A stretch of 64,000 bases of DNA, from NCBI GenBank assembly GCA_937996685.1, contig CALKUP010000001.1, positions 181,571 through 245,570 on the forward strand, given 5' to 3'. A program made the position numbers and the translations under genes. This document shows, piece after piece, positions 19,453 through 56,080 of the stretch. This stretch comes from an uncultured bacterium (GTDB taxonomy: Bacteria > Patescibacteriota > Patescibacteriia > UBA9570 > XYC2-FULL-38-9). Below the pieces are notes generated by a model. The model did not search any database, was not told the DNA's origin, and saw nothing but the letters and a program-made list of their open reading frames with translations. The number at the start of each line of letters is the position of its first letter. Position 1 is the stretch's first letter.

Positions 19453-19830
19453 GGTGTCTCTCCATCTCTGCTTTACTGAAAGCAGTTCTTGTTGTTGATG
19501 ATCACGCTTTCGATATCTCTATCTCAGCGCTTTTTTATCCCTGAATTCAGTATTTCAGGTGCAAAAAAGCCGCTGAGAAAGCGGCTAAGGTGTTGGTTTT
19601 TGGGGACGTTTCACCCCAGTTGCATCGACAGTCTGTTTTTGGGTGTGATATGTAGGATTGTTCATTTTTCGCAATGATTAGCAAAATGCTAGATGAAACC
19701 GGAAGAAATATAGCGTAGATTTGCGCATTTGTCAAGAATGATATTTTAGGTTACAGTCGGTGCCAGAGAAGCGTGAACACGTCCTGTGTTCAGCTGCTTT
19801 TGGACACTTCATTGACCTGCGGAGGGCGTC

Positions 19831-20253
19831 ATGAGTCAACCTATTGTCGATCGCAAGCCTGGCGACTTCAGCTTCATCTACCCGACGGGGATCATTGGTG
19901 AAGAGCTGCCTCGGTTCACCGTTGAAGACAAGGTCTTTCCCATTAAAGCGTTCTTCAACTGGGACATTGGTGCAGCCTGCGTTGCTGGCGCTCAAGGGGG
20001 CTTTCCCTTGGTGCGACCGGTTGACTACGAAGCTGCTGTCGCTGAGTGGCATCGTCGGTTTCCCGGGAAGGCATTGCCGCGGACCTTTGCGGAGCTCGCT
20101 GTTCTTCGTGGTGAGTCTGGTGATCACCGCTGGGGCTTGGCGCGGACACTTCGGAGGAGCGAGGAGAACAAGTCCGTCGGACCACGGAAACCCTCCGGAA
20201 CCGCGCTGCAGCGTTGCAGTTGTAGCGACGAATCGCGACCCTGCATGGAGTGA
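19831..20253 (+). CDS. hypothetical protein (high-GC island), preceded by a GGAGGG ribosome-binding site
   Basis: 140 aa; strong SD 5 nt upstream; a rho-independent terminator follows at 20283-20319. Confidence 0.5.
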   Translation: MSQPIVDRKPGDFSFIYPTGIIGEELPRFTVEDKVFPIKAFFNWDIGAACVAGAQGGFPLVRPVDYEAAVAEWHRRFPGKALPRTFAELAVLRGESGDHRWGLARTLRRSEENKSVGPRKPSGTALQRCSCSDESRPCME

Positions 20254-20282
20254 CCCCGTCTTTACGGATCAAGTCGTTTCGT

Positions 20283-20319
20283 ACCCTGTTTGTTTCGTAC
20301 ACAAGCAGGGTCTTTTTTT
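20283..20319 (+). terminator. rho-independent terminator (ACCCTG...CAGGGT followed by T7)
   Basis: 6-bp GC-rich stem, 17-nt loop and a TTTTTTT tract, directly after the 19831-20253 CDS. Confidence 0.6.
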
Positions 20320-20429
20320 ATCCAATAGATTTTTCAAATAAAAAAAGCCTCACAAATGATTCTATATACGGACTACAAATAGGCTATATATAGAGGTTCG
20401 TGAGGTGCGCCTCTCCGCACAGAGAAGCG

Positions 20430-20687
20430 CTACTTGGTGGCGAGAGGGTCTTCGGCGACCCGCACAATTTCGCAGGCCGCGCTGCCGTCGATCACACAGC
20501 GACCGCGGTTGTTATCTCGCATGAAGTCATCGCCCAATCGCCGAGCGGGTATGTCCCCGTGCTCCGCGAGCTGCCACAGGGCCTCGTGCGCCTGCAGTCC
20601 GAGAGCTGCAGGGTTAAGGAGTCGGACCACAGCCCCAGGGAACTGCTGCCGTGCTTGCCAGACAAGCATGCTCTGATTTTCAGACAT
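20430..20687 (-). CDS. hypothetical small protein (85 aa, high-GC island)
   Basis: GGAGG 5 nt upstream of the ATG (MSENQS...). The ORF track extends further to 20711, but the RBS supports the shorter start. Confidence 0.45.
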   Translation of the reverse strand: MSENQSMLVWQARQQFPGAVVRLLNPAALGLQAHEALWQLAEHGDIPARRLGDDFMRDNNRGRCVIDGSAACEIVRVAEDPLATK

Positions 20688-20835
20688 CTTTCCTCCAAAT
20701 TTGTCCGCCACAGTCGTAGCATACTATGTACTCCCTGGCAAGATAATACCTCTCTTTCAAGTGGATAGCTCCATTGGTTGCAGAGCTCTGGATTTTGACG
20801 TATTCTCAATACAATTCATTATTGAGCTTCTTTTT

Positions 20836-21831
20836 ATGAGTCTTACTCCCAAATCACAACACGACACCGCAGCGATATATGCTATTGATGGCGATTTTCC
20901 AGTTGCACGGTTTATTGCAACAACGCCAGAATCTCGTACTATTTGCAATGATCCATTTGTGCTTGGCGTTGATTATACGGAAAAATTGGAAACAGCCGCA
21001 ACAACCGCACTTGCGCTCTTAAAAGAATCAGGAGAAACAGTCGGTGATGATGAAGAGAAATTGGTTGTGTTAAATATTTTACGCGGTGGGTTGAATTATG
21101 GTCTGCGTAATGCAGTACACCGAGCCTATGGTTGGAATAATCATAGTTCTGCATTTATTTCCTCGCAACGCGCGAAAGATGATAATGGTGATTGGTATAT
21201 TTCGGAAAATCGTTATCAAAAAGTCTACCTTCCGAAAGGCGCACACATTTTGTTTGGTGATGTCGTCGCAACAGGCGTGAGCTTGGAGCATGCTGTTTTG
21301 CGAATTATTGATATTGCAAAAGAACAAGGTGGAAGTATTTCAGGAATGACTTTTTTTACCATTGGTGGCGATCGTTCAGAAGAGATTATGAAAAAAATTG
21401 ACGCAACGTGTCGCGAAGCATTTCCTGATTACACCGGCAGTCGTGTCATTTATTTTGAAGGTGTCTTTGGTGTTGCGACGACTGAAACGCCAATGCGTGT
21501 TGCGCTTGATGGAACAGATTTACTGCACTCACCGGCTTTGATGGCGCCAGAATTTATTGCGTCATCAGCCGAGGCATTATCATTTCCGATCGAGCGGTGC
21601 ACTATTTATGATGCTGGTTCACGTGCGTTTCATATTGCTGAGTACCTTGAAGATGTACATGAATATTGGAGCCAGGTGCTTCAATTTGCGCAAAACGGAG
21701 TAACATATAGCGAATACTTGAAAGAGCGGTTTCCAGAAAGTCCGCAATTACAAGACGCAGCGTTTGTTGAGACGCATAATACTACTGCGATTTTAGAAGA
21801 GGTCGCGACACAGCAGCTCGCCAAAAAATAA
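20836..21831 (+). CDS. phosphoribosyltransferase-domain protein (UPRT-like core) with an approximately 110-aa extra C-terminal domain
   Basis: ILRGGL and LFGDVVATGVSL resemble the uracil PRTase ILRAGL and DPMLATGGS motifs. The start was chosen at the internal ATG (MSLTPKSQ) because the upstream part of the ORF-track frame looks like intergenic read-through. Confidence 0.5.
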   Translation: MSLTPKSQHDTAAIYAIDGDFPVARFIATTPESRTICNDPFVLGVDYTEKLETAATTALALLKESGETVGDDEEKLVVLNILRGGLNYGLRNAVHRAYGWNNHSSAFISSQRAKDDNGDWYISENRYQKVYLPKGAHILFGDVVATGVSLEHAVLRIIDIAKEQGGSISGMTFFTIGGDRSEEIMKKIDATCREAFPDYTGSRVIYFEGVFGVATTETPMRVALDGTDLLHSPALMAPEFIASSAEALSFPIERCTIYDAGSRAFHIAEYLEDVHEYWSQVLQFAQNGVTYSEYLKERFPESPQLQDAAFVETHNTTAILEEVATQQLAKK

Positions 21832-37639: not shown

Positions 37640-37670
37640 TTGACATTTCATGAAAAAATAAGTATCATAC
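37640..37670 (+). promoter_or_regulatory. putative sigma70-type promoter (TTGACA-17-TATCAT) upstream of the high-GC gene
   Basis: ttgacatttcatgaaaaaataagtatcat; the downstream 5' region contains a perfect 13-bp inverted repeat. Confidence 0.3.
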
Positions 37671-37714
37671 TTCGTCATACCTTTGGGTGTGATGCACCTT
37701 TTACAACAAAACAT

Positions 37715-37771
37715 GTTGATTCAGGAATTGAGCGCAAAACAGTGTGTTTTGTATTCACTTCCTGAATCAAC
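37715..37771. repeat. perfect 13-bp inverted repeat GTTGATTCAGGAA / TTCCTGAATCAAC with a 31-nt spacer
   Basis: Read directly from the sequence; lies in the AT-rich leader upstream of the 37962 high-GC gene. Confidence 0.7.
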
Positions 37772-37961
37772 AAGGAATTCGGCTGAAGCAGGCATATTCA
37801 TACAAAGAAGATAGCGCAGGCAAAAATGCCAGAAGTCGCGACCCTTCAACAGAGATGCACGAAACCGTGTGTCGTATGAATGCTTCAAATAGATGTCCAG
37901 CGGGTTTGCTGGGTGTCTATTGCTGAATGGTCTATCAAAGACCAAAAAAATGGAGTTTCCC

Positions 37962-38828
37962 ATGACTGACATCAAGACCGTGACTCCTGCCACCACCATC
38001 TTCGTTCTCGGGGGTGAGGACGGGGAGATGCGTGCGATTCGCGCTCTCCTCCAGCGGTTTGGATACCGCTGGGTGCAGCCCAACCAGGCGTGGGGTGACC
38101 ACGCCTTCACGCCCGCGCAGTGCGGGCTCAAGGTCGAGTCAAAGGAGTTGTCCCGGCAAGGGCACTCCTACCGGGCCGATCAGATCGACGGCCTTCACCA
38201 GGCTGTCTTCGTTGAGTGCCGCGCTAGCGAGAGCGGCTGGCCGACGGACGGCTGGAGGTCTGTGGTCATCGACCATCACGGCTCCCGCTCGGGAGAGGTG
38301 GCCAGCATCCAGCAGGTCATTGATCTGCTCGGGTTGTGGCCCAGGCTCTCCTCGGCCACCCAGCGCTGGGCGGAGCTGATCGCGGTCAACGACTCGGGGT
38401 GGATCCCTGGGTTGCAGGCCTGGGGTGCCACGCTCGAGGAGATCGAGCGCGTCCGCGGGTTCGACCGAGCCGCGCAGGGCATCACGCCCGTCCACGAGAC
38501 AGAGGTCGAGCGGGCGCTCACCGCGCCAGAGGAGTTGATCGGCGCCATCCGCATTGTCCGGATGAGTCACTCGAAGACCTCTCCGCTCGGGGACAGACTG
38601 GCCCTCACCGCAATGCGCGAGGGACGGGAGGCTCCCTCCTACCTCGCGCTCTCCGGCGATGGGGAGGTGAACTTCTCTGGCGACGGCGCTCTCGCCGCCG
38701 CGCTCGCCACTCGGTTCCAGGGCTGGAGCGGCGGCTCCGGCCTCGGCAAAGCCGGGGAGAAGGCCTTCTGGGGAGGGTATCCCTCCCACGAGGAGGTGCT
38801 TGCGTTCATTCGCGAGCACACCGCTTGA
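37962..38828 (+). CDS. hypothetical protein on a high-GC (about 66%) island, with a GGAG ribosome-binding site
   Basis: 289 aa from MTDIKTV; contains a VVIDHHG motif (weakly DHH-like); strong codon GC3 bias. Confidence 0.5.
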   Translation: MTDIKTVTPATTIFVLGGEDGEMRAIRALLQRFGYRWVQPNQAWGDHAFTPAQCGLKVESKELSRQGHSYRADQIDGLHQAVFVECRASESGWPTDGWRSVVIDHHGSRSGEVASIQQVIDLLGLWPRLSSATQRWAELIAVNDSGWIPGLQAWGATLEEIERVRGFDRAAQGITPVHETEVERALTAPEELIGAIRIVRMSHSKTSPLGDRLALTAMREGREAPSYLALSGDGEVNFSGDGALAAALATRFQGWSGGSGLGKAGEKAFWGGYPSHEEVLAFIREHTA

Positions 38829-45572: not shown

Positions 45573-45785
45573 GGGGTTTACACGATAATCGTTATTGTGT
45601 AGTATTAGCGCAGTTAATAATCTTTTTATGAAATCAGTCAAACAATCAGTACATCAATTTTGTTTGAACCTCCTCGTGGTGGCTGATTTTATCGTGTATC
45701 CGTTTGTTGCCATTATTACACGTTGGAACACTCGGGCGCATTTACTGAAAGTATAAGATTATAGAAATTTTATAAGGAATCAGTA

Positions 45786-45818
45786 AACGCCCGAGGAGAA
45801 ATCCCCGGGCGTTTTGAT
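45786..45818 (+). terminator. hairpin AACGCCCG...CGGGCGTT followed by TTTG (weak terminator/attenuator)
   Basis: 8-bp stem. The middle arm can alternatively pair with an upstream CTCGGGCG at about 45745. Confidence 0.4.
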
Positions 45819-46037
45819 TAACAGATGATTATCAAGAGGAGGAAAGTGGTAATTATCTGAGAATCAACAGCATTCTCAGCGCACCTTTTGACAATCTAGC
45901 AACGCACAACAGTGTACTCAATTGACCTATTGAATTGAGCTGTGGTGAGAAGAGACGATGACGTGTTTGTTCGCTCTTTTCACCCCGGCTCTTCAATAGA
46001 GCCATTGCCGCGACGAAAGTCGCATTAGGAGGGACAC

Positions 46038-46382
46038 ATGTCCCACACGTCCGCGCCTGCAGCCTACACGACCGAGAACGCTCGCGCGATTCATTACCTT
46101 CGATTGGTGTACTTGATCACCAATCATCCTAATGACTTTGCTGTTCCCGCTTGGAGGCGGGACGCAAAGCACCTCGCGAATCTCCTGAAGCGCAAGCTCC
46201 AGGCTGATGTCAGCGACCCTGAGAGCCTCCGTGTTTGGGGGTTGGGGTTCCTGGGTCACAACACGGTCGATCGGCAGTTCCTGTCGATCTCTGATCGCGC
46301 GGCTCAGCGCTTGTCTCATCCCCGGACGGAATCTCCTCGTCGCGCTCAGGGCAGCCAACGCGTCTCTCTCGCTGATTGCTGA
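46038..46382 (+). CDS. hypothetical protein (114 aa) on a high-GC island, with a GGAGGG ribosome-binding site
   Basis: SD 5 nt upstream of the ATG; the antisense ORF 45993-46436 was rejected. Followed by two hairpins (CGGAGACC/GGTCTCCG and GGCAAC/GTTGCC plus a T-tract). Confidence 0.45.
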   Translation: MSHTSAPAAYTTENARAIHYLRLVYLITNHPNDFAVPAWRRDAKHLANLLKRKLQADVSDPESLRVWGLGFLGHNTVDRQFLSISDRAAQRLSHPRTESPRRAQGSQRVSLADC

Positions 46383-46597
46383 CCTCTCCTCGGAGACCTT
46401 CGGCTTCAACCCCGCGGGTCTCCGGCATGGCAACACCTTTGTGCGTTGCCCATTTTCCGATGAACATAAATTTTGTGTTTATCGGTTGAGTGAAAAATTA
46501 TGTCTATACAATTCCGTTCAATTCAATCTATTGCAAGCCTCATTATTCTTTTGTGGCAGGATTTGTAGTGGATTGATTCTTTTATCAGCATACTGCA

Positions 46598-46626
46598 AAT
46601 CCTGCGACTCCCGCAGGATTTTTTAT
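46598..46626 (+). terminator. rho-independent terminator (AATCCTGCG...CGCAGGATT followed by TTTTAT)
   Basis: 9-bp stem read directly from the sequence. Confidence 0.55.
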
Positions 46627-46709
46627 TGCTCTTTTTATGTCCGCGCCACTTCCTGATGTGTGATGTATTGGTTGATAGTTGCCAATATATTTCACCTTAG
46701 GAGGATCAG

Positions 46710-46901
46710 ATGGACAACGCGTCTGTAAACGCTCTCACTGTCGCTACTTCTCAAGAGGATGGCGATGCTTCCCTGGATGTCGTCGATCCGCAGTCAGAGG
46801 AGACTTCTTCTCGTACTGTGCACTCCGATTGTGTGTGGGAGGGCGTGCATCGGCCGCTTCCGACTCATCAACCGCGTTGGTGGGGAGAGTGGGCATTCTA
46901 A
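46710..46901 (+). CDS. small acidic hypothetical protein (63 aa), candidate precursor-like peptide
   Basis: AGGAGGA 6 nt upstream; high GC; rich in Asp, Glu, Ser and Thr (TSQEDGDASLDVVDPQSEETSSRT) with a Trp-rich C-terminus (RWWGEWAF). Confidence 0.4.
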   Translation: MDNASVNALTVATSQEDGDASLDVVDPQSEETSSRTVHSDCVWEGVHRPLPTHQPRWWGEWAF

Positions 46902-47492
46902 CGACTAAAATAAAAAAGTCGTTGCATTGAGATGTGCATTTCTGTGTTGCATCTCAATTTTTCTTAGTATGAATAGATTGAAATCCTTTGCTGTCGTTTA
47001 AAATATTTTTTGAACACAGAAAAAGAGGCAAGAAGATGAAACGGGAAGTGGTGTGACAGAGGGTCACGATTTCTGTGTTTCTTCTTCTTGCGGCGGAGGC
47101 GGGGACTCCTGCTGGGAGTCAGTCGGCCAGACCAGCTCGTACGGGTCGTACATGGCATTTCCTTGGCTTGTTATGGCCACCCGGCTCCTCGACGGAGAAG
47201 CACGGAACTCCTGGGACAACAATTTATCCAAGAGGTCCCGCACTTCTCAACGTCTATATCAAAGAACAAGATTCAAAAAAACCGCTCAAGTGGCGGGTTG
47301 ATGATCTATTTGCGAGAACAATCAATTAACCCACCAGCGTGTGTGCAAAAAAGAATCCAAAAAAGAAGGATTGATCTGTGACACGTGTTGTGTGTAAGTG
47401 ATTATTCATACGTACAAATAGAATAGCAAACCATGAAAAATCGTCAAGACGAGCAAGGGATTGTCTGCAATAGGCTGATATCAGCAGAAAAT

Positions 47493-47523
47493 TGACAGAC
47501 AGCTGATTTTTGTTATAGTGATT
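47493..47523 (+). promoter_or_regulatory. sigma70-type promoter TTGACA-16-TATAGT
   Basis: ttgacagacagctgatttttgttatagt; drives an approximately 110-nt transcript that ends at the 47615-47641 terminator. Confidence 0.4.
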
Positions 47524-47614
47524 GCGTTATGAATATCTGCCTCTCATTTTTAAAGAAAGATAAGAAGATGAACCCTTTGCGTGGGTAATGTTTGACAGTG
47601 TCTAAAAACATTTC

Positions 47615-47641
47615 AAACTCCCCACGTCGGGGAGTTTTTTT
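47615..47641 (+). terminator. rho-independent terminator (CAAACTCCCC ACGT GGGGAGTTTG-like stem followed by T7)
   Basis: Near-perfect 9-bp stem, 4-nt loop, long T tract; 40 nt upstream of the 518-aa gene. Confidence 0.7.
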
Positions 47642-47683
47642 ATAACAGACAATTGGTTTTCCGTGTGTGGATAAGAGAGGAAT

Positions 47684-49240
47684 ATGTACACACGGGCAAT
47701 CAAGCCTGACAATCACGTTCTCCTGGGGGAGATCATGACGTCCTTTGATAGCTCTGGTTCTACTGCAACTGTTGCCCTGGCTAAAAATGAAGGCATTGAC
47801 TGGGGTGAATTTAAGCCCCGAAGCCTCGACGAGGTCGCGAAGTTGCTCGGCATTCCGCTGAGTCGCGTGCTCCTCTGTCACCAGTTCGTGAACCATGATC
47901 CGGCGTGGATCATTCGTGAAGCGGACCTTGATGCGTACTTGGTGCGCATGGGCGCGGTTTGGACGCATGGTTTCTGTAGGGGGCAGGTGCTGACAACGCC
48001 GATGCTCCCGGGTGTCGTGCAAGATCATCTGCGCCCCCTTGGCTTCGCTTGTCGGCTCATCGAGAGCGATCGACCTGACTCGAGTCTGCGTCACGGCGAT
48101 GCTTTCCGGTTTGCCGGACACGACAGTGCTCTTGTTCAAGGCTGGGCAGATGACAATCGTGTCCTGCTGGCCAGCTTGGTCAGCCGAGACATGTCTGCAA
48201 GTGGTTTGTCCCGCATTACGCGCGGGGTGAGTCTCATGGTCAACTCCAAGCCGGAAATGCGCCGCGGCGCTGAAAAGTTTGGATTTCGGATGGCACCTGG
48301 TGGTGTCGTTCGGACGCTCGCTGACTGCGAGCGCGTCTGGAGTACTTGCTCCGGTGGCCGCGACGGTGAGGCAGACGGCTTCACCATGTGGTTGAAGGCT
48401 GACGGGAGTGGCTCGGACTTCGTCATTCGAGTGCGTAACCGTTTAGAGCTTCACGTTGCCTGCTTGGAGATGGTCAAGCGCGTGCTCGAGGGTCACGCAA
48501 CCTTGCCGTCTCAATGCAGAAGAGAAGTGAACGGAACTGTAATTCGCGGTTGGCGGGACGTACTTGAACGTGAAGGCCCCTTGCCAGAGGGCTTGGGATT
48601 TCCGATCCCGTTTGTCCTTGAAACGGATGCGACCGTGCTCGGCGAATTAGTCGCTAGCATCTGCTGGCAGGCGTTGATCTGTCTAGACGGTACGACCCGT
48701 GTTGTTGGGCACTCGGATCAGATCTTGTCGCCCGACGGATCGGAATGGTGGGGTTCCAAGCGCTCCTCGCTTGAACTTCCACCAGACTTCCGTGATCAGG
48801 CCGAACGGCTCGTGAAGTGGTATCGCCACTGCGGCTACACCGGCTTCATCGGGCCGGACGCGATCATCGTTCGTAATCGTGAGACCCAGGAACTCCAGAC
48901 GATCTGGATCGACCCGAACGGTCGGGCAGCCATGAGCACGACGGCTTTCATGGTTAGCAACGCGCTGTTTGACGGCGAGGGTGGGTGGATCAACACCAAC
49001 CTCACTTTGAGTGAGCCGCTGCAGAACTACACCCAGCTCCGCCAGCTCATCGGCGGAACGCTCCTCGACCCCGGCGGGGAAGACGGCGTTCAGGGTGTGG
49101 TTCTCGCGACCCGCACTGAGCCGGGCGAGCCCAGTCCGGTTCTCAAGCTGTGGTTCGGAAGTCGAGACGGCAACGGACTCGCGGCCTGCGAGGCGATGCT
49201 CGCCAAGCTCCAAGTCCGTGGAGTCAAGATCGGCAGCTAA
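47684..49240 (+). CDS. hypothetical protein with an ATP-grasp-like C-terminal half (high-GC island)
   Basis: 518 aa. The C-terminal GFIGPDAIIVRNRETQELQTIWIDPNGRAAMSTTAFMV parallels the ATP-grasp Mg/ATP-binding region (compare carB FNIQF...VIELNLRASRS in this window). The N-terminal approximately 200 aa are unassigned. RBS-like AGAGGAA upstream. Confidence 0.45.
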   Translation: MYTRAIKPDNHVLLGEIMTSFDSSGSTATVALAKNEGIDWGEFKPRSLDEVAKLLGIPLSRVLLCHQFVNHDPAWIIREADLDAYLVRMGAVWTHGFCRGQVLTTPMLPGVVQDHLRPLGFACRLIESDRPDSSLRHGDAFRFAGHDSALVQGWADDNRVLLASLVSRDMSASGLSRITRGVSLMVNSKPEMRRGAEKFGFRMAPGGVVRTLADCERVWSTCSGGRDGEADGFTMWLKADGSGSDFVIRVRNRLELHVACLEMVKRVLEGHATLPSQCRREVNGTVIRGWRDVLEREGPLPEGLGFPIPFVLETDATVLGELVASICWQALICLDGTTRVVGHSDQILSPDGSEWWGSKRSSLELPPDFRDQAERLVKWYRHCGYTGFIGPDAIIVRNRETQELQTIWIDPNGRAAMSTTAFMVSNALFDGEGGWINTNLTLSEPLQNYTQLRQLIGGTLLDPGGEDGVQGVVLATRTEPGEPSPVLKLWFGSRDGNGLAACEAMLAKLQVRGVKIGS

Positions 49241-49358
49241 GTCTGTCGCATAGATGCGTTCACAAAACGTAACCGTGTAGACTTACTGTTGATTGGGGTG
49301 ATTGTGTATAACTCTCACCCCTTTTTATTTATTGTAATCAATACCGCTTTCGCGCAAA

Positions 49359-50927
49359 ATGTTCTATCATCATCCTATGAAACAACTTTTTTACAACGGA
49401 CAATTTTACACCGGCACATTTGAAGCTGATCCAACATCAGCTGATTTTGTATCAGCGATTCTGGTTGAAGACGGAATTATCACCCAGGTCATTAAAAATG
49501 AAGCTGACGTTGCAGAATTACAATCGAGCGTGGACGAAGTAATCGACTGCCGTGGACAGTGGGTGTTACCAGTCTTTGAAGATGCGCATAATCATCCAGG
49601 TAGTCATAGCCGTATTATGTTGGAATGTGATTTGCGCGATACAACAATGTCATGGCAAGAGGCTGTGGAGATAATTCGGCAATACAGCAAGACACAAAAA
49701 CCCGGAGATTGGATTGTTGTGCATGGCTGGAATTCAGCGCAATGGCCGGGTCTCTCAAAAATAGAACTTGATACTATTTCAACAGAGCATCCAATTATTT
49801 TGGCAGACCAAAGTTATCATAGTGGTGTGTGTAACACGCTCGCGGCAAAACATTTTGCACAACACCAACCGTCTGTAGTTATAAGTGATCAAGGCATTCT
49901 TGAAGAAGCGTCATTTGAAACAGCGTTTGATTCAACTGCTCCAGGGCCGGAAGTGTATGCTCGCGCAGTTAAACAATTTCAATTGAACGCCGCACAACTC
50001 GGCATTGGTAGTATGCATGAATTGGAAGTGCGTAGTCAGCAGCAGCTGGCCGCGTTTGCTGAACTTGAAAGAAATGATGAGGCGTTTATGGATGTGCCGA
50101 TTTTTATTACGCCTGCAGTATTTGATACTGATGAAAAACGAAATTTTTTGATTCAATTCATAGAAGAACAAAAACAGTGGAAGCATACACAAATCATCGG
50201 ATTAAAACTGATGATCGATGGTTCATTTGGAAGTTATACTGCAGCGCTCGCAGAGTCATATAAAAATCGAAACACGCATGGTGTTATCCGCACGCAGTTA
50301 GATGAAATTGCGTATTGGGTCGCACAAGCTGAGCAGTTCGGTCTCGCGCAGGTTGCAATGCATTGTATTGGTGATAGGGGAATTGAAACAGCACTGACAG
50401 CCATTGAGGCTCTCAAATCACGGCATCAACAGATACAACTGTGGCGCTTGGAACATGTTGAACTTCCAAGTAACGAGCATATACAAAAAGCAAAAGCGCT
50501 TGGTGTTGTGTTTTGTTTTCAACCAAGTTTTTTATGGGATGCGTTGAATTATGAAGATAGGTTAGGTGAGCGTGTGAATGCGTTAATGCCACTACGGTCT
50601 GTTATTGAGCAGGGACTTCCATTTGTGTTTGGTTCTGATGATCAACCAACTGGTCCAATTGCTGGTATCGATTGGGTGACTCGACGTGCGCCGTCATCTG
50701 CGCAACAAGTGACACGCTTAGAAGCGTTTCGTGCTTCAATTATTGATCCTCCAAAATTATTCACGGACACCTCACTTGATAATAATCGAGGACAGTTGCA
50801 GATTGGATATAAGGCGAATATAATGCTATTTAAAAGTGATGTATTTCAGATAACAGATGAAGTCTTTTATCAAGTGAATCCAAGTGCTGTATATATATCT
50901 GGCATGCTCGTAAGTTCGATGGAATAA
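49359..50927 (+). CDS. metal-dependent amidohydrolase (amidohydrolase-3 / YtcJ-like family)
   Basis: FEDAHNHPG metal-binding start of the fold, later His/Asp ligands; 522 aa. Confidence 0.7.
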   Translation: MFYHHPMKQLFYNGQFYTGTFEADPTSADFVSAILVEDGIITQVIKNEADVAELQSSVDEVIDCRGQWVLPVFEDAHNHPGSHSRIMLECDLRDTTMSWQEAVEIIRQYSKTQKPGDWIVVHGWNSAQWPGLSKIELDTISTEHPIILADQSYHSGVCNTLAAKHFAQHQPSVVISDQGILEEASFETAFDSTAPGPEVYARAVKQFQLNAAQLGIGSMHELEVRSQQQLAAFAELERNDEAFMDVPIFITPAVFDTDEKRNFLIQFIEEQKQWKHTQIIGLKLMIDGSFGSYTAALAESYKNRNTHGVIRTQLDEIAYWVAQAEQFGLAQVAMHCIGDRGIETALTAIEALKSRHQQIQLWRLEHVELPSNEHIQKAKALGVVFCFQPSFLWDALNYEDRLGERVNALMPLRSVIEQGLPFVFGSDDQPTGPIAGIDWVTRRAPSSAQQVTRLEAFRASIIDPPKLFTDTSLDNNRGQLQIGYKANIMLFKSDVFQITDEVFYQVNPSAVYISGMLVSSME

Positions 50928-51208: not shown

Positions 51209-51283
51209 GCGGGTATCGTATAGTGGCTATTACGCGGCCTTCCCAAGGCTGAAAGAGGAGTTCGATTCTCCTTACCCGCTCCA
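51209..51283 (+). tRNA. tRNA-Gly (anticodon CCC) with genomically encoded CCA
   Basis: Manual fold: acceptor GCGGGTA/TACCCGC, anticodon stem CGGCC/GGCTG, loop TTCCCAA, T-arm AGGAG-TTCGATT-CTCCT, discriminator U, 3' CCA. Confidence 0.8.
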
Positions 51284-54841: not shown

Positions 54842-55079
54842 CCTCAATTCCACAATTTGTTTGATGCAGATATTTGACGTTGACTTTATTTTATACGGGT
54901 GATACGTTATTGTGTCGCTGATTCTTTTAATTCAGTGCTCTTTTTATCGATCGTTGAGGAAATAAGTCGCTTTCAATATGTGTAAAGGCGTTTTATTCCC
55001 TCAGCGGTCATTCATCGTTATCAATGAGATCAAGTCACATTAATCGTTTGCTGAGGGGCATGCGATTTTGGGAGGATTC

Positions 55080-55484
55080 ATGGAAGACGGACAGTTCGGA
55101 ACTCCTCGTGAACATGCAACGTTCATGGGCATCACCATGGGCTACTGGATCTTCATCATCGCGCTTCTCCTCGGAGGCAGCGCGGTGGTGATGGTGACCA
55201 AGCCGGTCTTCCTCGGCTTCGAGCGGGAGATCTATACCAACTCACGTCAGTACACCGATGCGAAGGACGTGCAACTCCTCGCCTGGATCGCCGAGTACTC
55301 GGAGCTCGTCACGGAGAAGGCGAGGCTCGAGGCGCAGACGGACGTCGACAACACGACTGTGATTGACGGCATCGACAGCCAGATGCACTTCATGCTCGGT
55401 CGTATCCATGCCGAGGCTGCTCGCGTGTCTCCCGAAGCGCTTTCTTCCACGGTTCGCGAATTCCTCGCGCGCCACAATCTCTGA
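55080..55484 (+). CDS. hypothetical membrane-anchored protein (high-GC island), with a GGGAGGA ribosome-binding site
   Basis: 134 aa from MEDGQF; one TM helix (ITMGYWIFIIALLLGGSAVVMV); acidic C-terminal domain. Confidence 0.5.
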   Translation: MEDGQFGTPREHATFMGITMGYWIFIIALLLGGSAVVMVTKPVFLGFEREIYTNSRQYTDAKDVQLLAWIAEYSELVTEKARLEAQTDVDNTTVIDGIDSQMHFMLGRIHAEAARVSPEALSSTVREFLARHNL

Positions 55485-55495
55485 AGGAGGTGAAC

Positions 55496-56080
55496 ATGAA
55501 CAAGGCTTTCCTTCGTTTGGCAGCGCTGCTCCTGATGGCGTTGCTGTTCTTCACTGGCACTGGTTGCGACCAAAGCTCGGAAGAGCGCGACCGCGCAGTC
55601 GTTCAAGACCAGCAGAAGCAGTATGGAATTGCGCAGCCGATCCCGAGCTATGATTGGTCCCCGGAACGGGACAACGTGATCCAGCTCTACGACATCCGTA
55701 TGGGAATTGTCGCCACCCACGCCGTTTGGCGAGGCGACACGTCGATCGTTGAAGGCGACTGTCCGGCGATCGGATATCCGATTCCGTACGACACCCAGCT
55801 CACCAACCCGCTGCAAGTGCTGCCTGACAGTGGCCACGAGGTGGTTGAGCAGGCGGAACCGAACGGCTTGTTCTCTTCAAAAAACAGCACGGGCACGTGG
55901 GTGCTGTGTGTTGAGGGCAAGGCAATCGAACCTGTCCTTGTCGAGGGCAAGGTGACGACCTACCCGTATCCGGTGGTTGTCGATTACACAACCAATCGAG
56001 TCACCCGTGCCGTTGGAGGTCGCTCTTCGGTCAAGTTGAAGGTCAATGACAAGCCGCCTTCTCAGCGGAGCAAGCCTTGA
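55496..56080 (+). CDS. hypothetical lipoprotein (high-GC island), with an AAGGAGGTG ribosome-binding site
   Basis: Signal peptide with lipobox LFFTGTGC; 194 aa. Confidence 0.5.
   Translation: MNKAFLRLAALLLMALLFFTGTGCDQSSEERDRAVVQDQQKQYGIAQPIPSYDWSPERDNVIQLYDIRMGIVATHAVWRGDTSIVEGDCPAIGYPIPYDTQLTNPLQVLPDSGHEVVEQAEPNGLFSSKNSTGTWVLCVEGKAIEPVLVEGKVTTYPYPVVVDYTTNRVTRAVGGRSSVKLKVNDKPPSQRSKP

What the first reader, a model, noticed from the sequence alone, without database searches (positions are those of the whole stretch)
45900..49250. High-GC cassette: a 114-aa protein, a 63-aa acidic Ser/Thr/Asp/Glu-rich peptide and a 518-aa ATP-grasp-like enzyme, a possible peptide-modification (graspetide-like) locus
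The 518-aa protein has a C-terminal segment (FIGPDAIIVRNRETQELQTIWIDPNGR) that aligns motif-for-motif with the ATP-grasp Mg/ATP-binding region of carB in this same window. Upstream on the same strand, an SD-driven 63-aa ORF encodes a peptide rich in hydroxyl and carboxyl residues (TSQEDGDASLDVVDPQSEETSSRT), ending in a Trp-rich tail. That composition is what ATP-grasp macrolactone/macrolactam-forming RiPP ligases act on. A possible regulator-like 114-aa gene is preceded by TCAATTGA palindromic boxes. On the minus strand at about 47075-47254 there may be a further GC3-biased micro-ORF (MYDPYELVWPTDSQQESPPPPQEEETQKS). The whole reading is speculative; the ATP-grasp assignment rests on one motif block and the N-terminal approximately 200 aa are unexplained. 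If it holds, it would be an uncharacterised RiPP-like system on horizontally acquired DNA.
Basis: inference. Interest (0 to 1): 0.65.

Follow-up and report, generated by a model that had tools for sequence, protein, structure and literature searches.

The report
Starvation-gated orphan ATP-grasp ligase operon
The large protein is a real but very rare ATP-grasp amide-forming ligase, always paired with an amidohydrolase and preceded by a lysine/asparagine-rich leader-peptide attenuator; it is not a peptide-cyclising RiPP enzyme, and the small upstream genes are separate attenuator-controlled units.

Summary
The ORFs, the GC-rich composition and the ATP-grasp motif are real. A structure model and profile searches confirm an ATP-grasp fold. 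The nearest solved relatives are free-substrate amino-acid/peptide ligases (LdmS, a Streptomyces peptide ligase, PGM1, BesA), not graspetide cyclases. The family is tiny: 7 proteins at E<=1e-30 among 1.84 billion representatives.

The 63-aa and 114-aa ORFs are conserved only in the closest relatives. They are separate transcription units and do not travel with the enzyme. The conserved partner is a YtcJ-type Amidohydro_3 hydrolase, present in 6 of 6 lineages and co-diverging with the ligase. More distant homologues sit next to Asparaginase_2 or an M20 peptidase.

New result: in every lineage the ligase gene follows a promoter, a near-leaderless 17-24-codon Lys/Asn-rich ORF, an intrinsic terminator and a competing antiterminator. 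This is the architecture of a classical ribosome-mediated attenuator. The same 2 kb holds a pheL-like Phe leader on the minus strand, an Ile/Leu leader before the 63-aa gene, and possibly a fourth unit.

The minus-strand "micro-ORF" is mostly a conserved 124-nt hairpin RNA. The ligase gene stays GC-rich in all lineages while its co-inherited neighbour does not. That argues against recent horizontal transfer and remains unexplained.

The parts
45628..45756 (+). 42-codon ORF (MKSVKQSVHQFCLNLLVVADFIVYPFVAIITRWNTRAHLLKV). It is either a leader peptide or a small hydrophobic protein. Its 3' part (CTCGGGCG) is complementary to the 5' arm of the next terminator.
   Evidence: Recovered by the unbiased terminator/antiterminator scan with p=0.003. 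No comparative data are available, so confidence is low.
45788..45817 (+). Intrinsic terminator (CGCCCGAGGA/TCCCCGGGCG plus a T-run) following the 42-codon ORF.
45917..45939 (.). Inverted repeat CTCAATT-N9-AATTGAG. It may be an operator; this was not tested.
46038..46382 (+). 114-aa GC-rich protein gene of unknown function, predicted to be helical.
   Evidence: A 97-aa homologue in L015 (56-349) is 47% identical at the protein level, while the DNA no longer aligns. An identical protein is on record. No Pfam, NCBIfam, PADLOC or PHROG hit. The AF2 model has 4 helices at pLDDT 62 and no fold match.
46500..46568 (+). Ile/Leu-rich leader ORF MSIQFRSIQSIASLIILLWQDL*. Its last codons (GGCAGGATTTG) pair with the 5' arm of the terminator.
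   Evidence: Scan p=0.003. Conserved in L015 as MSIQFRSIRSIASLMIILMWQDL and recovered there independently. The predicted antiterminator is -31 kcal/mol. This noncoding stretch is 83-92% identical to L015/L016, more than the flanking ORFs.
46597..46628 (+). Intrinsic terminator of the Ile/Leu attenuator (AAATCCTGCG-loop-CGCAGGATTT plus a T-run).
46710..46901 (+). 63-aa GC-rich gene with a variable acidic middle and a conserved C-terminal CVWE.VHRPLP..QPRWWGEWAF. It contains no Ile, Lys or Tyr. Function unknown. It is not linked to the ligase.
   Evidence: Its only homologue is P0117 (64 aa, 52% identity). The context in L015/L016 is 97-aa gene, 64-aa gene, Phe leader, asparaginase. Composition.
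46908..46964 (.). Bidirectional terminator: a hairpin at 46927-46957 flanked by an A-run and a T-run. It closes both the 63-aa unit and the minus-strand Phe-controlled unit.
   Evidence: Read directly from the sequence.
47064..47153 (-). Only the first ~6 codons are conserved. In L015/L016 it reads MIDPDTIEYSC*.
47151..47274 (-). Nearly invariant 124-nt GC-rich RNA that folds into a roughly 30-bp hairpin. It lies between the Phe attenuator and the micro-ORF ATG.
   Evidence: MFE is -48 kcal/mol with z=-4.6, and the same fold is predicted in L015/L016. All 8 substitutions within the 59-aa reading frame are non-synonymous.
47274..47300 (-). Terminator of the Phe attenuator (AACCCGCC-ACTTGA-GCGGTT plus a T-run, read on the minus strand).
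47326..47409 (-). Phe-rich leader ORF MNNHLHTTRVTDQSFFFGFFFAHTLVG*, resembling pheL. Its last codons (GGTGGGTT) pair with the terminator 5' arm (AACCCGCC).
   Evidence: Duplex energy is -15.4 kcal/mol with p=0.0055. The predicted antiterminator is -17.2 kcal/mol. The ORF is almost invariant in L015/L016.
47420..47447 (-). Promoter of the Phe leader (TTGACG-16-TATTCT). The ATG lies 10 nt after the -10 box.
47492..47519 (+). Promoter of the ligase operon (TTGACA-16-TATAGT, 11 of 12 matches, extended TG).
   Evidence: The TTGAC box is conserved in all six lineages.
47529..47588 (+). Lys/Asn-rich leader ORF MNICLSFLKKDKKMNPLRG*. Its ATG is 9 nt after the -10 box, so it is inferred to be near-leaderless. 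Segment 2 (GTGGG, 47581-47585) pairs with CCCAC (47621-47625).
   Evidence: Equivalent 17-24-codon ORFs are present in L007, L006, L015, L001, L005, L008 and L009. The leader RNA has z=-4.2. Lys is 14.9% and Asn 10.6% of leader residues, against 4.8% and 3.4% in the background.
47615..47644 (+). Intrinsic terminator of the Lys/Asn attenuator (AAACTCCCC-ACGTC-GGGGAGTTT plus T7).
47645..47734 (+). 5' UTR containing a covarying hairpin (CCGTGTGT/ACACACGG) and a hairpin that pairs the Shine-Dalgarno sequence (47719-47732).
   Evidence: Two pairs show compensatory changes among the window, L007, L006 and L015.
47735..49240 (+). ATP-grasp carboxylate-amine ligase of 501 aa (the ORF is open from 47684). 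Key residues in 518-aa numbering: K189, K238, E313/D315, D392, D410, N412, R414.
49295..49326 (+). Hairpin (GGGGTGA-13 nt-TCACCCC) plus a T-run, between the ligase and the hydrolase. An equivalent element is present in L001, L005 and L008.
49377..50927 (+). YtcJ-type Amidohydro_3 metal-dependent hydrolase, the conserved operon partner. The likely start is MKQLFYNG; the ORF is open from 49359.
   Evidence: Pfam PF07969 at 2.8e-55. PDB hits 3icj and 3igh, both 'uncharacterized metal-dependent hydrolase'. Synteny. Co-divergence. The start is conserved in other loci.

Best explanation
The 47735-49240 gene encodes a genuine ATP-grasp carboxylate-amine ligase from a very small, uncharacterised family. 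Its nearest solved relatives are L-amino-acid and peptide ligases.

By analogy with those enzymes, it would bind Mg-ATP between the central and C-terminal domains. It would phosphorylate a substrate carboxylate to an acyl-phosphate, held by the invariant Arg of the D-x-N-x-R motif. It would then couple that intermediate to an amine to form an amide. This chemistry is inferred.

The ligase is co-transcribed with a metal-dependent Amidohydro_3 hydrolase. The hydrolase presumably acts on the same amide or a related one (inferred). This would be a ligase-plus-hydrolase module like ldmS/hmrA.

Expression is gated by a ribosome-mediated transcription attenuator.
- A strong promoter starts a near-leaderless 19-codon ORF with a run of Lys/Asn(/Asp) codons.
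- If the ribosome runs to the stop codon, it covers segment 2, the terminator forms, and transcription stops before the ligase gene.
- If the ribosome stalls on the Lys/Asn codons, segment 2 pairs with the terminator's 5' arm. This closes an extended antiterminator hairpin, and RNA polymerase reads through.
- The architecture is shown here. Its response to Lys/Asn-tRNA charging is inferred.

The upstream 'cassette' is not a precursor/regulator set for this enzyme. It is a row of independent small units with the same regulatory logic:
- an Ile/Leu leader before the 63-aa gene;
- a pheL-like Phe leader on the minus strand before a conserved hairpin RNA and a tiny variable ORF;
- possibly a 42-codon ORF with its terminator before the 114-aa gene.

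The substrate is unknown. The Lys/Asn leader, and the Asparaginase_2, asparaginase and M20 neighbours in relatives, point weakly to an aspartyl/asparaginyl- or lysine-containing amide.
For: Fold and family:
- AF2 model with pTM 0.73.
- The top 50 Foldseek PDB matches are all ATP-grasp enzymes: 8ynd, BesA, LdmS, PGM1, PurD, PurK and biotin carboxylases.
- Profile hits to LdmS, 8ynd, PGM1 and BesA.
- Invariant K, K, N and R, and near-invariant D and E, across 30 homologues. These correspond in position to LdmS K136/K173, D288/D301, N303 and R305, as described in PMC9486568.

Partner:
- Amidohydro_3 lies downstream in the window, L001-4, L005, L006, L008 and L009.
- The pairwise identity matrices of ligase and hydrolase are nearly the same: 78/78, 45/42, 45/41, 45/41.
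- Remote homologues sit next to Asparaginase_2 and Peptidase_M20.

Attenuator:
- In six lineages the -35 box to ATG distance is 38-42 nt, the ATG is 9-11 nt after the -10 box, the ORFs are 17-24 codons, and stop codon to T-run is 41-47 nt.
- Segment 2:3 complementarity beats dinucleotide shuffles. Fisher p is 7e-9 for 7 units, 4e-7 without L006, and 6e-6 for the 5 independent ligase leaders.
- The paired sequences differ completely between lineages: GTGGG/CCCAC, CGGCT/AGCCG, GAGAAGG/CCTTCTC, GGAGA/TCTCC and GAGGGA/TCCCTC.
- With a stalled ribosome masked and the 3' arm not yet transcribed, the MFE fold gives the antiterminator in all 9 units, at -16 to -31 kcal/mol.
- An unbiased scan of 129 terminator-like hairpins in the window found 3 with a significant upstream complement plus a short ORF, and 2 of those lie in this region. 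The same scan recovered the ligase leaders in L001, L008 and L015.
- Leader peptides are 14.9% Lys and 32.6% K+D+N. Six-frame translation of intergenic DNA gives 5.6% and 13.7%.
- The neighbouring FFFGFFF leader has the same layout.
Against: - No Pfam or NCBIfam model reaches threshold for the ligase. No enzymatic or expression data exist.
- For the window's own Lys leader, the segment 2:3 duplex alone is only marginal (p=0.09).
- Segment 1:2 pairing is weak in some lineages.
- Leaderless translation and RNA polymerase-ribosome coupling in this organism are assumed, not shown.
- The leader mixes Lys, Asn and Asp codons, so the sensed amino acid is ambiguous.
- Inducing an amino-acid-consuming ligase under starvation is paradoxical. 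The same paradox was noted for ldmS.
- A terminator-like hairpin lies between the ligase and the hydrolase, so the two genes may not be expressed strictly together.
- Only about six independent lineages are available.
Confidence: 0.7

Rival explanations
1. Graspetide-like RiPP locus. The ATP-grasp enzyme would form side-chain macrolactone or macrolactam rings in the 63-aa Ser/Thr/Asp/Glu-rich peptide, with the 114-aa protein acting as a regulator.
For: The enzyme does have an ATP-grasp fold. The 63-aa ORF is a real gene on the same strand, conserved in one relative, and rich in D/E/S/T. Graspetide clusters have been reported in CPR bacteria (PMC8939145).
Against: - The nearest relatives are free-substrate ligases. 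No graspetide cyclase or RimK-type chain appears among PDB sequence hits up to E=10 or among the top 50 fold matches.
- The peptide is absent from 4 of the 5 other lineages that carry the enzyme.
- In the closest relative, an asparaginase and a GNAT-like gene lie between the 64-aa homologue and the point where the sequence ends. No ligase gene is seen there.
- Two terminators and a convergent minus-strand unit separate the 63-aa ORF from the ligase.
- The conserved part of the peptide is the Trp-rich tail, while the acidic stretch varies.
- The peptide has no Lys, and no P-h-h or GG motif.
Confidence: 0.03
2. PGM1-type peptide ligase. The short conserved upstream ORF (17-24 aa, K/N/D-rich) would not be a regulatory leader but the ribosomal substrate. 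The ligase would join its processed peptide to another carboxylate, and the terminator after it would merely set the precursor-to-enzyme ratio.
For: PGM1 and the related 8ynd peptide ligase are among the best structural and profile matches. PGM1 links a small ribosomal core peptide to a non-proteinogenic acid (PMC8939145). The small ORF is present immediately upstream in every lineage. One family member has a faint PGM1_C hit at E=0.07.
Against: - The peptides share composition but have no conserved core.
- Segment 2:3 complementarity, with lineage-specific paired sequences, is not expected for a plain precursor gene.
- The same leader, 84% identical, precedes a GNAT-like gene instead of the ligase in L015.
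- An identically built unit 100 nt away encodes an FFFGFFF peptide that looks like a textbook Phe leader.
- No genes for making a non-proteinogenic acyl donor are nearby.
Confidence: 0.07
3. The leader is a terminator/antiterminator switch driven by something other than the ribosome, such as a metabolite riboswitch, an RNA-binding protein or a tRNA. The small ORF would be incidental.
For: Alternative 2:3 and 3:4 helices are common to all attenuation systems. The leader RNA is strongly structured, with z=-4.2. The purine-rich stretch could be an RNA-level signal. The start codon has no Shine-Dalgarno sequence.
Against: - An ATG lies 9-11 nt after the -10 box in all six lineages, and in the Phe unit.
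- The ORFs are always 17-24 codons, ending at or next to segment 2.
- Lys/Asn enrichment is about 3-fold over translated intergenic DNA.
- No Rfam family reaches threshold; the best hits have E of 0.07-5.
- Outside the helices there is almost no conserved sequence that could form a ligand pocket.
Confidence: 0.1
4. The GC-rich segments are simply recently acquired foreign DNA (a genomic island), and their composition has no functional meaning.
For: - GC is 0.56-0.66 against a 0.46 background.
- The proteins have no family assignment.
- The 63-aa and 114-aa genes have a very narrow distribution.
- Gene content differs between close relatives: the asparaginase and GNAT-like gene are present in L015 and absent here.
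- There is an excess of S>W over W>S changes, 17 against 8.
Against: - For the ligase, GC3 is 0.55-0.81 in six lineages that are only 33-45% identical. The adjacent Amidohydro_3 shows the same divergence pattern but has GC3 of 0.32-0.43. The gene is therefore old in this position.
- No integrase, tRNA or repeat boundary flanks 45.6-49.3 kb. The only tRNA is at 51209.
- There are no phage or defence-system hits.
Confidence: 0.1

Closest known systems
LdmS (L-aspartate--L-methionine ligase, SAOUHSC_02373; PDB 7r8p/7r8q) and the hmrA/ldmS operon of Staphylococcus
   Same: - It is the best sequence-profile match in the PDB, at 6e-10, and a top fold match.
- It has the same I-D-x-N-x-R Mg/catalytic block and the G-x-D Mg ligand.
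- It is encoded in a two-gene operon with an amide hydrolase (the M20D peptidase HmrA).
- It is predicted to be induced under nutrient stress even though it consumes an amino acid, the same paradox as here (PMC9486568).
- A remote homologue of our protein, P0009, is itself followed by an M20 peptidase.
   Different: - Detectable similarity covers only the C-terminal ~120 residues.
- The LdmS signature residues are not kept: N307 is Ala, N255 is Ser and Y252 is Trp (my reading of the alignment against the residue list).
- The partner here is Amidohydro_3, not M20D.
- Regulation here is by a leader-peptide attenuator, not CodY/CymR.
- LdmS homologues were reported only in Firmicutes.
PGM1 (pheganomycin peptide ligase, 3wvq) and the Streptomyces ATP-grasp peptide ligase 8ynd; BesA (8yi6)
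   Same: They are the top fold matches, with E of 3e-10 to 1e-7 and probability 1.0. Profile hits are 1e-8, 2e-7 and 3e-5. Their size (~410-470 aa) is similar and they have a large N-terminal domain. They form amide bonds with free amino acids or peptides.
   Different: Sequence identity is 14-18%. No secondary-metabolite biosynthetic genes are nearby. No conserved core peptide is present. NCBIfam BesA scores 14 bits against a cutoff of 750.
Graspetide (microviridin-type) ATP-grasp macrocyclases
   Same: They belong to the ATP-grasp superfamily, and small ORFs lie upstream on the same strand.
   Different: They are not among the sequence or fold matches. There is no co-conserved precursor, no leader recognition motif, and no conserved Thr/Ser/Lys-Asp/Glu core (criteria from PMC8939145).
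Classical ribosome-mediated attenuators (trpL, pheL/pheM, thrL, ilvL, leuL, hisL)
   Same: The layout matches the I-IV model summarised in PMC1183508: a short leader ORF with a run of codons for one or a few amino acids, an intrinsic terminator, and a mutually exclusive antiterminator whose 5' strand overlaps the end of the leader ORF. The minus-strand FFFGFFF peptide resembles E. coli pheL; that comparison is from memory.
   Different: - The controlled genes are not recognisable biosynthetic genes for the cognate amino acid. They are an orphan ligase/hydrolase pair, orphan small proteins and a hairpin RNA.
- The leader ATG sits 9-11 nt after the -10 box, so it is apparently leaderless.
- A Lys/Asn-codon leader is not, to my knowledge, among the classical examples. 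A library search for Patescibacteria/CPR together with leader-peptide attenuation found nothing.
- None of the leaders reaches an Rfam leader family threshold.
YtcJ-like Amidohydro_3 hydrolases (PDB 3icj, 3igh)
   Same: Full-length PF07969 match at 2.8e-55. PDB relatives at 1e-29 and 6e-28.
   Different: Those structures are themselves annotated 'uncharacterized metal-dependent hydrolase', so no substrate can be transferred from them.
Other ATP-grasp-ligase-plus-amide-hydrolase pairs: LysX/LysK of LysW-mediated lysine synthesis; cyanophycin synthetase with isoaspartyl dipeptidases IaaA/IadA (recalled from memory, not tested)
   Same: They follow the same logic of an ATP-grasp ligase teamed with a hydrolase that later cleaves an amide. 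They involve Lys, Asp or Arg. Asparaginase_2 (the IaaA family) is the partner of the remote homologue P0007.
   Different: No LysW-like carrier is present: the 63-aa protein lacks the CxxC pairs and does not end in Glu. There are no LysZ/Y/J genes, no Mur-ligase-like domain and no cyanophycinase. RimK-type and LysX-type chains are not among the matches.

Membership tests
ATP-grasp superfamily | Three-domain grasp fold | tested here: met
   AF2 model with pTM 0.73. There are 272 PDB matches at E<=1e-3, and the top 50 are all ATP-grasp enzymes at probability 1.0.
ATP-grasp superfamily | Two ATP-phosphate-binding lysines, acidic/Asn Mg ligands, and a catalytic Arg in an E/D-x-N-x-R block | tested here: met
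   K189, K238, N412 and R414 are invariant, and D392 is near-invariant, across 30 homologues. D410 is invariant in the close family. These align to LdmS D288/D301/N303/R305.
ATP-grasp superfamily | Match to a curated Pfam ATP-grasp model above threshold (PF02655, PF08443, PF13535 and others) | tested here: not met
   The window protein has no Pfam hit. Only 4 of 30 homologues touch PF02655, all below threshold with best E of 2e-4. The family is too divergent for current models. This does not contradict the fold result.
ATP-grasp superfamily | ATP-dependent carboxylate-amine ligation | not testable with these tools
   Needs an enzyme assay.
LdmS (L-Asp--L-Met ligase) orthologues | Signature residues Arg47, Tyr252, Asn255, Arg305, Asn307 and Ser309 (PMC9486568) | tested here: not met
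   From the alignment, R305 corresponds to R414 and S309 to S418, both kept. N307 is Ala416, N255 is Ser358 and Y252 is Trp. R47 could not be aligned.
LdmS (L-Asp--L-Met ligase) orthologues | NCBIfam NF047900 above its cutoff (475 bits) | tested here: not met
   The window protein has no hit. Remote homologues score 25-37 bits.
Graspetide biosynthetic cluster | The ATP-grasp enzyme belongs to the graspetide cyclase clade | tested here: not met
   No such chain appears among profile hits up to E=10 or among the top 50 fold matches.
Graspetide biosynthetic cluster | A precursor peptide gene is co-conserved with the enzyme | tested here: not met
   The 63-aa ORF has no tblastn match in L001-L009. 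Its only homologue lies in a different gene context.
Graspetide biosynthetic cluster | A leader with a P-h-h-x(1,2)-h or PFFARFL-type motif, a GG-type cleavage site, and a core with conserved Ser/Thr/Lys and Asp/Glu | tested here: not met
   There is no Pro in the first 26 residues, no GG and no Lys. Between the two homologues the acidic Ser/Thr stretch is the variable part and the Trp-rich tail is the conserved part (criteria).
PGM1-type peptide ligase system | Structural and sequence relatedness to PGM1 | tested here: met
   Foldseek gives 5e-8 to 5e-7 for 3wvq/3wvr, and the profile gives 1.8e-7. The relationship is distant, at 17-18% identity.
PGM1-type peptide ligase system | A ribosomal peptide substrate with a conserved core, plus genes for the acyl donor | tested here: inconclusive
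   A short ORF is always present upstream, but it has no conserved core and it carries attenuator features. No donor-biosynthesis genes are nearby.
Ribosome-mediated (leader-peptide) transcription attenuator | A short ORF with a run of regulatory codons upstream of the controlled gene | tested here: met
   Seven ligase-type leaders have 2-4 Lys codons and 4-8 K/N/D codons in 17-24 codons. Lys is 14.9% against 4.8-5.6% in controls. FFFGFFF and I/L-rich leaders lie nearby.
Ribosome-mediated (leader-peptide) transcription attenuator | An intrinsic terminator between the leader ORF and the gene | tested here: met
Ribosome-mediated (leader-peptide) transcription attenuator | An antiterminator (II:III) mutually exclusive with the terminator, positioned so that a terminating ribosome masks it | tested here: met
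   Shuffle tests give Fisher p of 6e-6 to 7e-9. The paired sequences differ between lineages. Segment 2 ends within a few nt of the stop codon in 5 of 7 units. MFE folds agree.
Ribosome-mediated (leader-peptide) transcription attenuator | A I:II pause or anti-antiterminator hairpin | tested here: inconclusive
   It is clear in L008 and L009, and only 3-4 bp in the window and L001.
Ribosome-mediated (leader-peptide) transcription attenuator | Read-through responds to charging of the cognate tRNA, and the leader is translated | not testable with these tools
   Needs reporter assays, Term-seq or ribosome profiling.
Ribosome-mediated (leader-peptide) transcription attenuator | Match to an Rfam leader family | tested here: not met
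   Only sub-threshold hits: Phe_leader at 22.9 bits against a cutoff of 55, and Trp_leader at 19.6 against 41. Rfam leader models are lineage-specific, so this says little.

The most novel reading that the evidence does not exclude
The 45.6-51 kb stretch would be an amino-acid-starvation sensing island of an ultra-small (CPR-type) bacterium. Separate Phe, Ile/Leu and Lys/Asn leader-peptide attenuators would each switch on an orphan product: a hairpin RNA, small proteins, and a ligase/hydrolase pair.

The controlled genes would be kept GC-rich by selection. That composition would let them be translated when tRNAs for AT-rich codons (Lys AAR, Asn AAY, Phe TTY, Ile ATH) are uncharged. This would explain why the ligase gene has stayed at GC3 0.55-0.81 next to a co-inherited neighbour at 0.32-0.43 in six deeply diverged lineages.

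A corollary is that the ligase/hydrolase pair makes and breaks a Lys/Asx-containing amide that buffers these amino acids.
Probability: 0.15. Interest if true: 0.8.

Novelty: new variant of a known kind. Interest (0 to 1): 0.55.

Why it matters
This defines a previously unrecognised, very rare branch of ATP-grasp ligases that no curated model detects. It comes with a fixed hydrolase partner and a built-in clue to its physiology, namely a leader peptide that names the amino acids it responds to.

Leader-peptide attenuators have not, as far as the searchable literature shows, been described in CPR/Patescibacteria. These organisms are thought to depend on others for amino acids. Here three or four such attenuators lie side by side and control genes of unknown function. 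That gives a direct, testable handle on how such cells sense amino-acid supply.

The stable compositional contrast between two co-inherited neighbouring genes is also a clean natural case for testing ideas about codon choice under starvation.

For the scan itself, it shows that a GC-rich island carrying a small acidic ORF next to an ATP-grasp gene is not enough to call a RiPP cluster.

Tried and rejected
- Curated family searches: Pfam, NCBIfam, PADLOC and PHROGs on the ligase and on the 114-aa and 63-aa proteins gave nothing usable. The only hit was a BesA whisper at E=0.014.
- phmmer of the single ligase sequence against the PDB found nothing. A 30-sequence profile was needed.
- Rfam at gathering threshold found only a tRNA. 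At permissive E-values it gave only chance-level hits.
- Genome and metagenome scans for more loci gave one Kerfeldbacteria locus each plus weak strays. An 8-sequence alignment was too diverse for pattern scanning.
- Exact look-ups of the window's own hydrolase and 63-aa gene found no contig on record. I therefore could not retrieve the source genome, and the taxonomy rests on the nearest named homologue, Candidatus Kerfeldbacteria.
- A strict regex for promoter plus ATG plus terminator found only the Lys leader. It was replaced by the duplex/shuffle scan.
- I looked for homology between the small ORFs upstream of the ligase in different lineages (114, 119, 117, 124 and 149 aa) and found none.
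- I tested whether the micro-ORF is coding and rejected it.
- I tested the '114-aa regulator' idea by structure prediction. The model had low confidence and no fold match.
- I tried to polarise substitutions to see whether the GC content is decaying. There were too few changes to decide: 17 against 8.
- I considered a LysW-like carrier role for the 63-aa protein and a cyanophycin-like system. I rejected both for lack of the defining partners and motifs.

Full report
**1. What is in the sequence**

- The 114-aa ORF is at 46038-46382.
- The 63-aa ORF is at 46710-46901.
- The 518-aa ORF is at 47684-49240.
- The minus-strand ORF is at 47064-47243.

The 114-aa and 63-aa ORFs have AGGAGG Shine-Dalgarno sites. 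The window averages 46% GC. These segments reach 56-67% GC and are separated by AT-rich spacers.

The spacers contain intrinsic terminators at 45788-45811, 46597-46621, 46908-46964 (bidirectional), 47274-47300 (minus strand) and 47615-47637. The "cassette" is therefore a row of separate transcription units.

The large protein starts at M18 (47735), giving 501 aa. All homologues start there, and the 97%-identical copy in L007 has an in-frame TAG upstream.

The carB comparison holds as a motif resemblance only; BLASTP is not significant. The "TCAATTGA boxes" are one exact copy and one 1-mismatch copy. Together they form a 7-nt inverted repeat at 45917-45939.

**2. The large protein is an ATP-grasp ligase, but not a graspetide cyclase**

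Pfam finds nothing, and NCBIfam gives only a faint BesA hit. In a database of 5.8 billion clustered proteins there are four homologues, at 96, 76, 44 and 43% identity. An exhaustive profile search of 1.84 billion representatives gives 114 hits at E<=1e-3 but only 7 at E<=1e-30. The family is real but tiny.

An AlphaFold model built on five sequences has pLDDT 69 and pTM 0.73. Foldseek against the PDB returns only ATP-grasp enzymes among the top 50, all at probability 1.0. In order they are:
- a Streptomyces ATP-grasp peptide ligase (8ynd, E=3e-10);
- BesA;
- LdmS (7r8q);
- PGM1;
- then PurD, PurK and biotin carboxylases.

A 30-sequence profile hits LdmS (6e-10), 8ynd (1e-8), PGM1 (2e-7) and BesA (3e-5). 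Even at E<=10 it hits no graspetide cyclase, RimK or GshB chain.

The invariant residues are those expected of the superfamily:
- K189 and K238;
- D392, in the G-P-D block;
- D410, N412 and R414, in the I-D-P-N-G-R block.

They align to LdmS D288, D301, N303 and the catalytic R305. The roles of those LdmS residues are described in PMC9486568.

The LdmS specificity residues N255, N307 and Y252 are not conserved. The protein is therefore not an LdmS orthologue, and its substrates are unknown.

**3. The true partner is a hydrolase, not a peptide**

In every locus with context, the ligase gene is followed on the same strand by a YtcJ-type Amidohydro_3 gene.
- This holds for the window (PF07969, 2.8e-55), L001-L004, L005, L006 and L008.
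- It also holds for L009, where a NUDIX gene is inserted between them.

The pairwise identity matrices of the two proteins are almost the same: 78/78, 45/42, 45/41 and 45/41. The pair has therefore been inherited together.

More distant ligase homologues sit next to other amide hydrolases. P0007 (28% identity) is next to Asparaginase_2, and P0009 (26% identity) is next to a Peptidase_M20. The M20 arrangement is the same as the hmrA/ldmS operon. A ligase-plus-amide-hydrolase module is thus the recurring theme.

The 63-aa and 114-aa ORFs behave differently.
- Neither has a tblastn match in L001-L009.
- The 63-aa ORF has one homologue, at 52% identity.
- The 114-aa ORF has one homologue, a 97-aa protein at 47% identity in L015.
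- Both homologues come from the same close relatives, where they are followed by a type I asparaginase.
- Both ORFs therefore look like real genes of a narrow clade, but they are not linked to the ligase.
- In the 63-aa protein the conserved part is the C-terminal Trp-rich tail. The acidic Ser/Thr stretch is variable.
- The 63-aa protein has none of the graspetide precursor hallmarks listed in PMC8939145.
- The 114-aa protein models as four helices at low confidence, with no fold match.
- No defence or phage family matches any of these proteins.

**4. A conserved leader-peptide attenuator precedes the ligase gene**

A strong promoter (TTGACA-16-TATAGT, 47492-47519) and a terminator (47615-47637) lie just upstream of the gene. 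The same arrangement occurs in all six lineages, although the sequences barely align. The shared elements are as follows.
- A TTGAC -35 box.
- An ATG 9-11 nt after the -10 box, which implies a near-leaderless transcript (inferred).
- An ORF of 17-24 codons.
- A T-run 41-47 nt after the stop codon.
- The ligase start about 35-110 nt further on.

The leader peptides are:

| Locus | Leader peptide |
|---|---|
| window, L007 | MNICLSFLKKDKKMNPLRG |
| L006 | MNFHFTLVNKDKNDTNSPRG |
| L015 | MINSLMNSKKKMNSPRG |
| L001 | MILALQTVDNKKKSPLTVG |
| L005 | MNQAIYFVTKSKRDDDSLMRDLLT |
| L008 | MSYRAQSKKNDNNDAFSEKVV |
| L009 | MQRNTHKFKKIEKSLQRRWCV |

Lys makes up 14.9% and Asn 10.6% of leader residues. The window's proteins have 4.8% and 3.4%. 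Six-frame translation of intergenic DNA gives 5.6% Lys.

In each lineage the last codons of the leader ORF are complementary to the 5' arm of that lineage's terminator. The paired sequences differ entirely between lineages:
- window: GTGGG/CCCAC;
- L006: GCGGG/CCCGC;
- L001: CGGCT/AGCCG;
- L008: GAGAAGG/CCTTCTC;
- L009: GGAGA/TCTCC;
- L005: GAGGGA/TCCCTC.

Against dinucleotide shuffles, the combined Fisher p is 7e-9 for seven units. It is 4e-7 without the related L006, and 6e-6 for the five independent ligase leaders.

I folded the RNA as it would exist with a ribosome stalled mid-ORF and the 3' terminator arm not yet made. This gives an extended antiterminator hairpin in all nine units examined, at -16 to -31 kcal/mol. 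The window's leader RNA has z=-4.2.

In the window, a ribosome stalled on codons 9-13 (KKDKK) would end just 5' of segment 2. A ribosome at the stop codon would cover segment 2. This is the region I-IV logic of classical attenuation (PMC1183508).

The 5' UTR after the terminator carries a hairpin with two compensatory pairs, and a second hairpin that pairs the Shine-Dalgarno sequence.

**5. The neighbours are attenuator units too**

- **Phe unit, minus strand.** A promoter (47447-47420) is followed 10 nt later by MNNHLHTTRVTDQSFFFGFFFAHTLVG*. Its last codons pair with the 5' arm of the terminator at 47300-47274 (duplex -15.4 kcal/mol, p=0.0055). This looks like a Phe leader.
- **What the Phe unit controls.** It is not a conserved protein. 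The next 124 nt (47274-47151) are almost invariant in L015/L016. They fold into a roughly 30-bp hairpin (-48 kcal/mol, z=-4.6). After the ATG the "micro-ORF" diverges: MYDPYELVW... against MIDPDTIEYSC*.
- **Ile/Leu unit.** An unbiased scan tested 129 terminator-like hairpins in the window. It found three with a significant upstream complement plus a short ORF, and two of those lie in this region. One is the Ile/Leu-rich leader MSIQFRSIQSIASLIILLWQDL* (46500-46568), in front of the 63-aa gene. It is conserved in L015 and was recovered there independently.
- **Possible fourth unit.** The other scan hit is a 42-codon ORF (45628-45756) ahead of the 114-aa gene. No comparative data exist for it, so confidence is low.
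- **Scan validation.** The same scan independently recovers the ligase leaders in L001, L008 and L015.
- **A re-used leader.** In L015, a Lys/Asn leader 84% identical to the window's precedes a GC-rich GNAT-like gene rather than the ligase. The leader module is therefore re-used.

**6. Composition**

The ligase gene has GC3 of 0.55-0.81 in six lineages. The co-inherited hydrolase next door has GC3 of 0.32-0.43. The remote homologue P0007 has no such leader and is not GC-rich. Recent horizontal transfer therefore does not explain the ligase's composition.

The ligases are Lys-poor, at 1.7-2.8% against 4.8%. The 63-aa protein behind the Ile/Leu leader has no Ile.

One reading is selection for translation during starvation. 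That would mean avoiding the limiting amino acids and the heavily used A/T-ending codons, as in the selective-charging idea discussed in PMC1183508. This is conjecture. Polarised substitutions (17 S>W against 8 W>S) are too few to decide.

**7. Mechanism and verdict**

Shown:
- the ATP-grasp fold and catalytic motifs;
- the conserved operon with an amidohydrolase;
- the promoter, leader ORF, antiterminator and terminator architecture, with lineage-specific complementary sequences.

Inferred:
- acyl-phosphate chemistry producing an amide;
- the hydrolase acting on the same or a related compound;
- read-through when ribosomes stall on Lys/Asn codons;
- leaderless translation of the leader ORF.

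Unknown:
- the substrate. The Lys/Asn leader and the asparaginase-type neighbours hint at an Asx- or Lys-containing amide;
- the functions of the 63-aa and 114-aa proteins and of the hairpin RNA.

The RiPP, regulator and horizontal-transfer readings do not hold.

The organism is probably a CPR/Patescibacteria bacterium. This is inferred from the nearest named homologue, Candidatus Kerfeldbacteria.

A search of the paper library found no report of leader-peptide attenuation in this group.

I rate this a new variant of known kinds: a new ATP-grasp ligase family with a new type of leader-peptide control. It carries an unexplained compositional feature that deserves follow-up.

Noticed in passing
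window 37893-38828; 55068-56080; about 19000-21000: Other GC-rich islands carry long ORFs with no Pfam or NCBIfam family. The 311-aa ORF at 37893-38828 has GC 0.66 and GC3 0.82. The 138-aa and 196-aa ORFs at 55068-56080 have GC3 of about 0.70. They have the same compositional signature as the ligase gene.
   Followed up: partly
window 37641-37800: A promoter-like TTGACA-17-TATCAT is followed by a 13-bp perfect hairpin (GTTGATTCAGGAA...TTCCTGAATCAAC) with no T-run. It lies in the leader of the GC-rich 311-aa ORF. The layout differs from the attenuators described here.
   Followed up: no
window 47645-47734 (also L007, L006, L015): The 5' UTR of the ligase gene contains a hairpin with two compensatory base-pair changes among four sequences. 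It also contains a hairpin that sequesters the Shine-Dalgarno sequence (47719-47732). This suggests a second, translational layer of control.
   Followed up: partly
window 49295-49326; L001 ~9420-9470; L005 ~9510-9560; L008 ~4290-4345: A large-loop hairpin followed by a T-run lies between the ligase stop and the hydrolase start in every lineage examined. There is no room for a promoter after it. It may be a partial terminator or a processing or stability element that sets the ligase-to-hydrolase ratio.
   Followed up: partly
L015 1451-3099: In a close relative, a type I asparaginase and then a GC-rich GNAT-like gene occupy the position before the ligase leader. The GNAT-like gene lies behind a Lys/Asn leader, terminator and UTR that are 84% identical to the window's. 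The leader module therefore appears to be duplicated or exchanged between genes.
   Followed up: partly
L005 17224-17058 (minus strand): A candidate leader ORF, MNSFSQAITVNVKTHAPVWSFSFDNLYYMGGH, has a complementary terminator arm (p=0.013). It lies upstream of a GATase-GCS2-M20 peptidase operon near the ligase locus.
   Followed up: no
window 49359-49377: The Amidohydro_3 ORF is open from 49359. The conserved N-terminus MK(T/Q)(L/I)F(H/Y)N in other lineages points to a start at 49377. No Shine-Dalgarno sequence precedes either ATG.
   Followed up: yes
L005 8001-8078: The database gene call for the L005 ligase (P0004) starts 26 codons too early and runs through the attenuator's terminator. The SD-preceded ATG at 8079 matches the other family members.
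   Followed up: yes
C-termini of the ligase family (window 49220-49240): All close homologues end in ...R-G/N-V/I-K/R-I/R-G-S-COOH, conserved to the last residue. This is unusual and hints at a functional C-terminal tail.
   Followed up: no
window 46427-46720 and 47139-47467 versus L015/L016: Noncoding regulatory stretches are 83-95% identical between genomes whose coding regions in the same area are only about 50-60% identical at the protein level. This is stronger constraint on leaders than on the genes they control.
   Followed up: partly
window 45959-46000: A 13-codon ORF (MTCLFALFTPALQ*) and a GCGAC-GAAA-GTCGC hairpin abut the Shine-Dalgarno sequence of the 114-aa gene. This may be a translational control element.
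   Followed up: no
L001 7929-9512 (minus strand): A 527-codon antisense ORF spans the whole ligase gene in the most GC-rich orthologue. It is broken into pieces in the window, so it is most likely a by-product of GC richness.
   Followed up: partly
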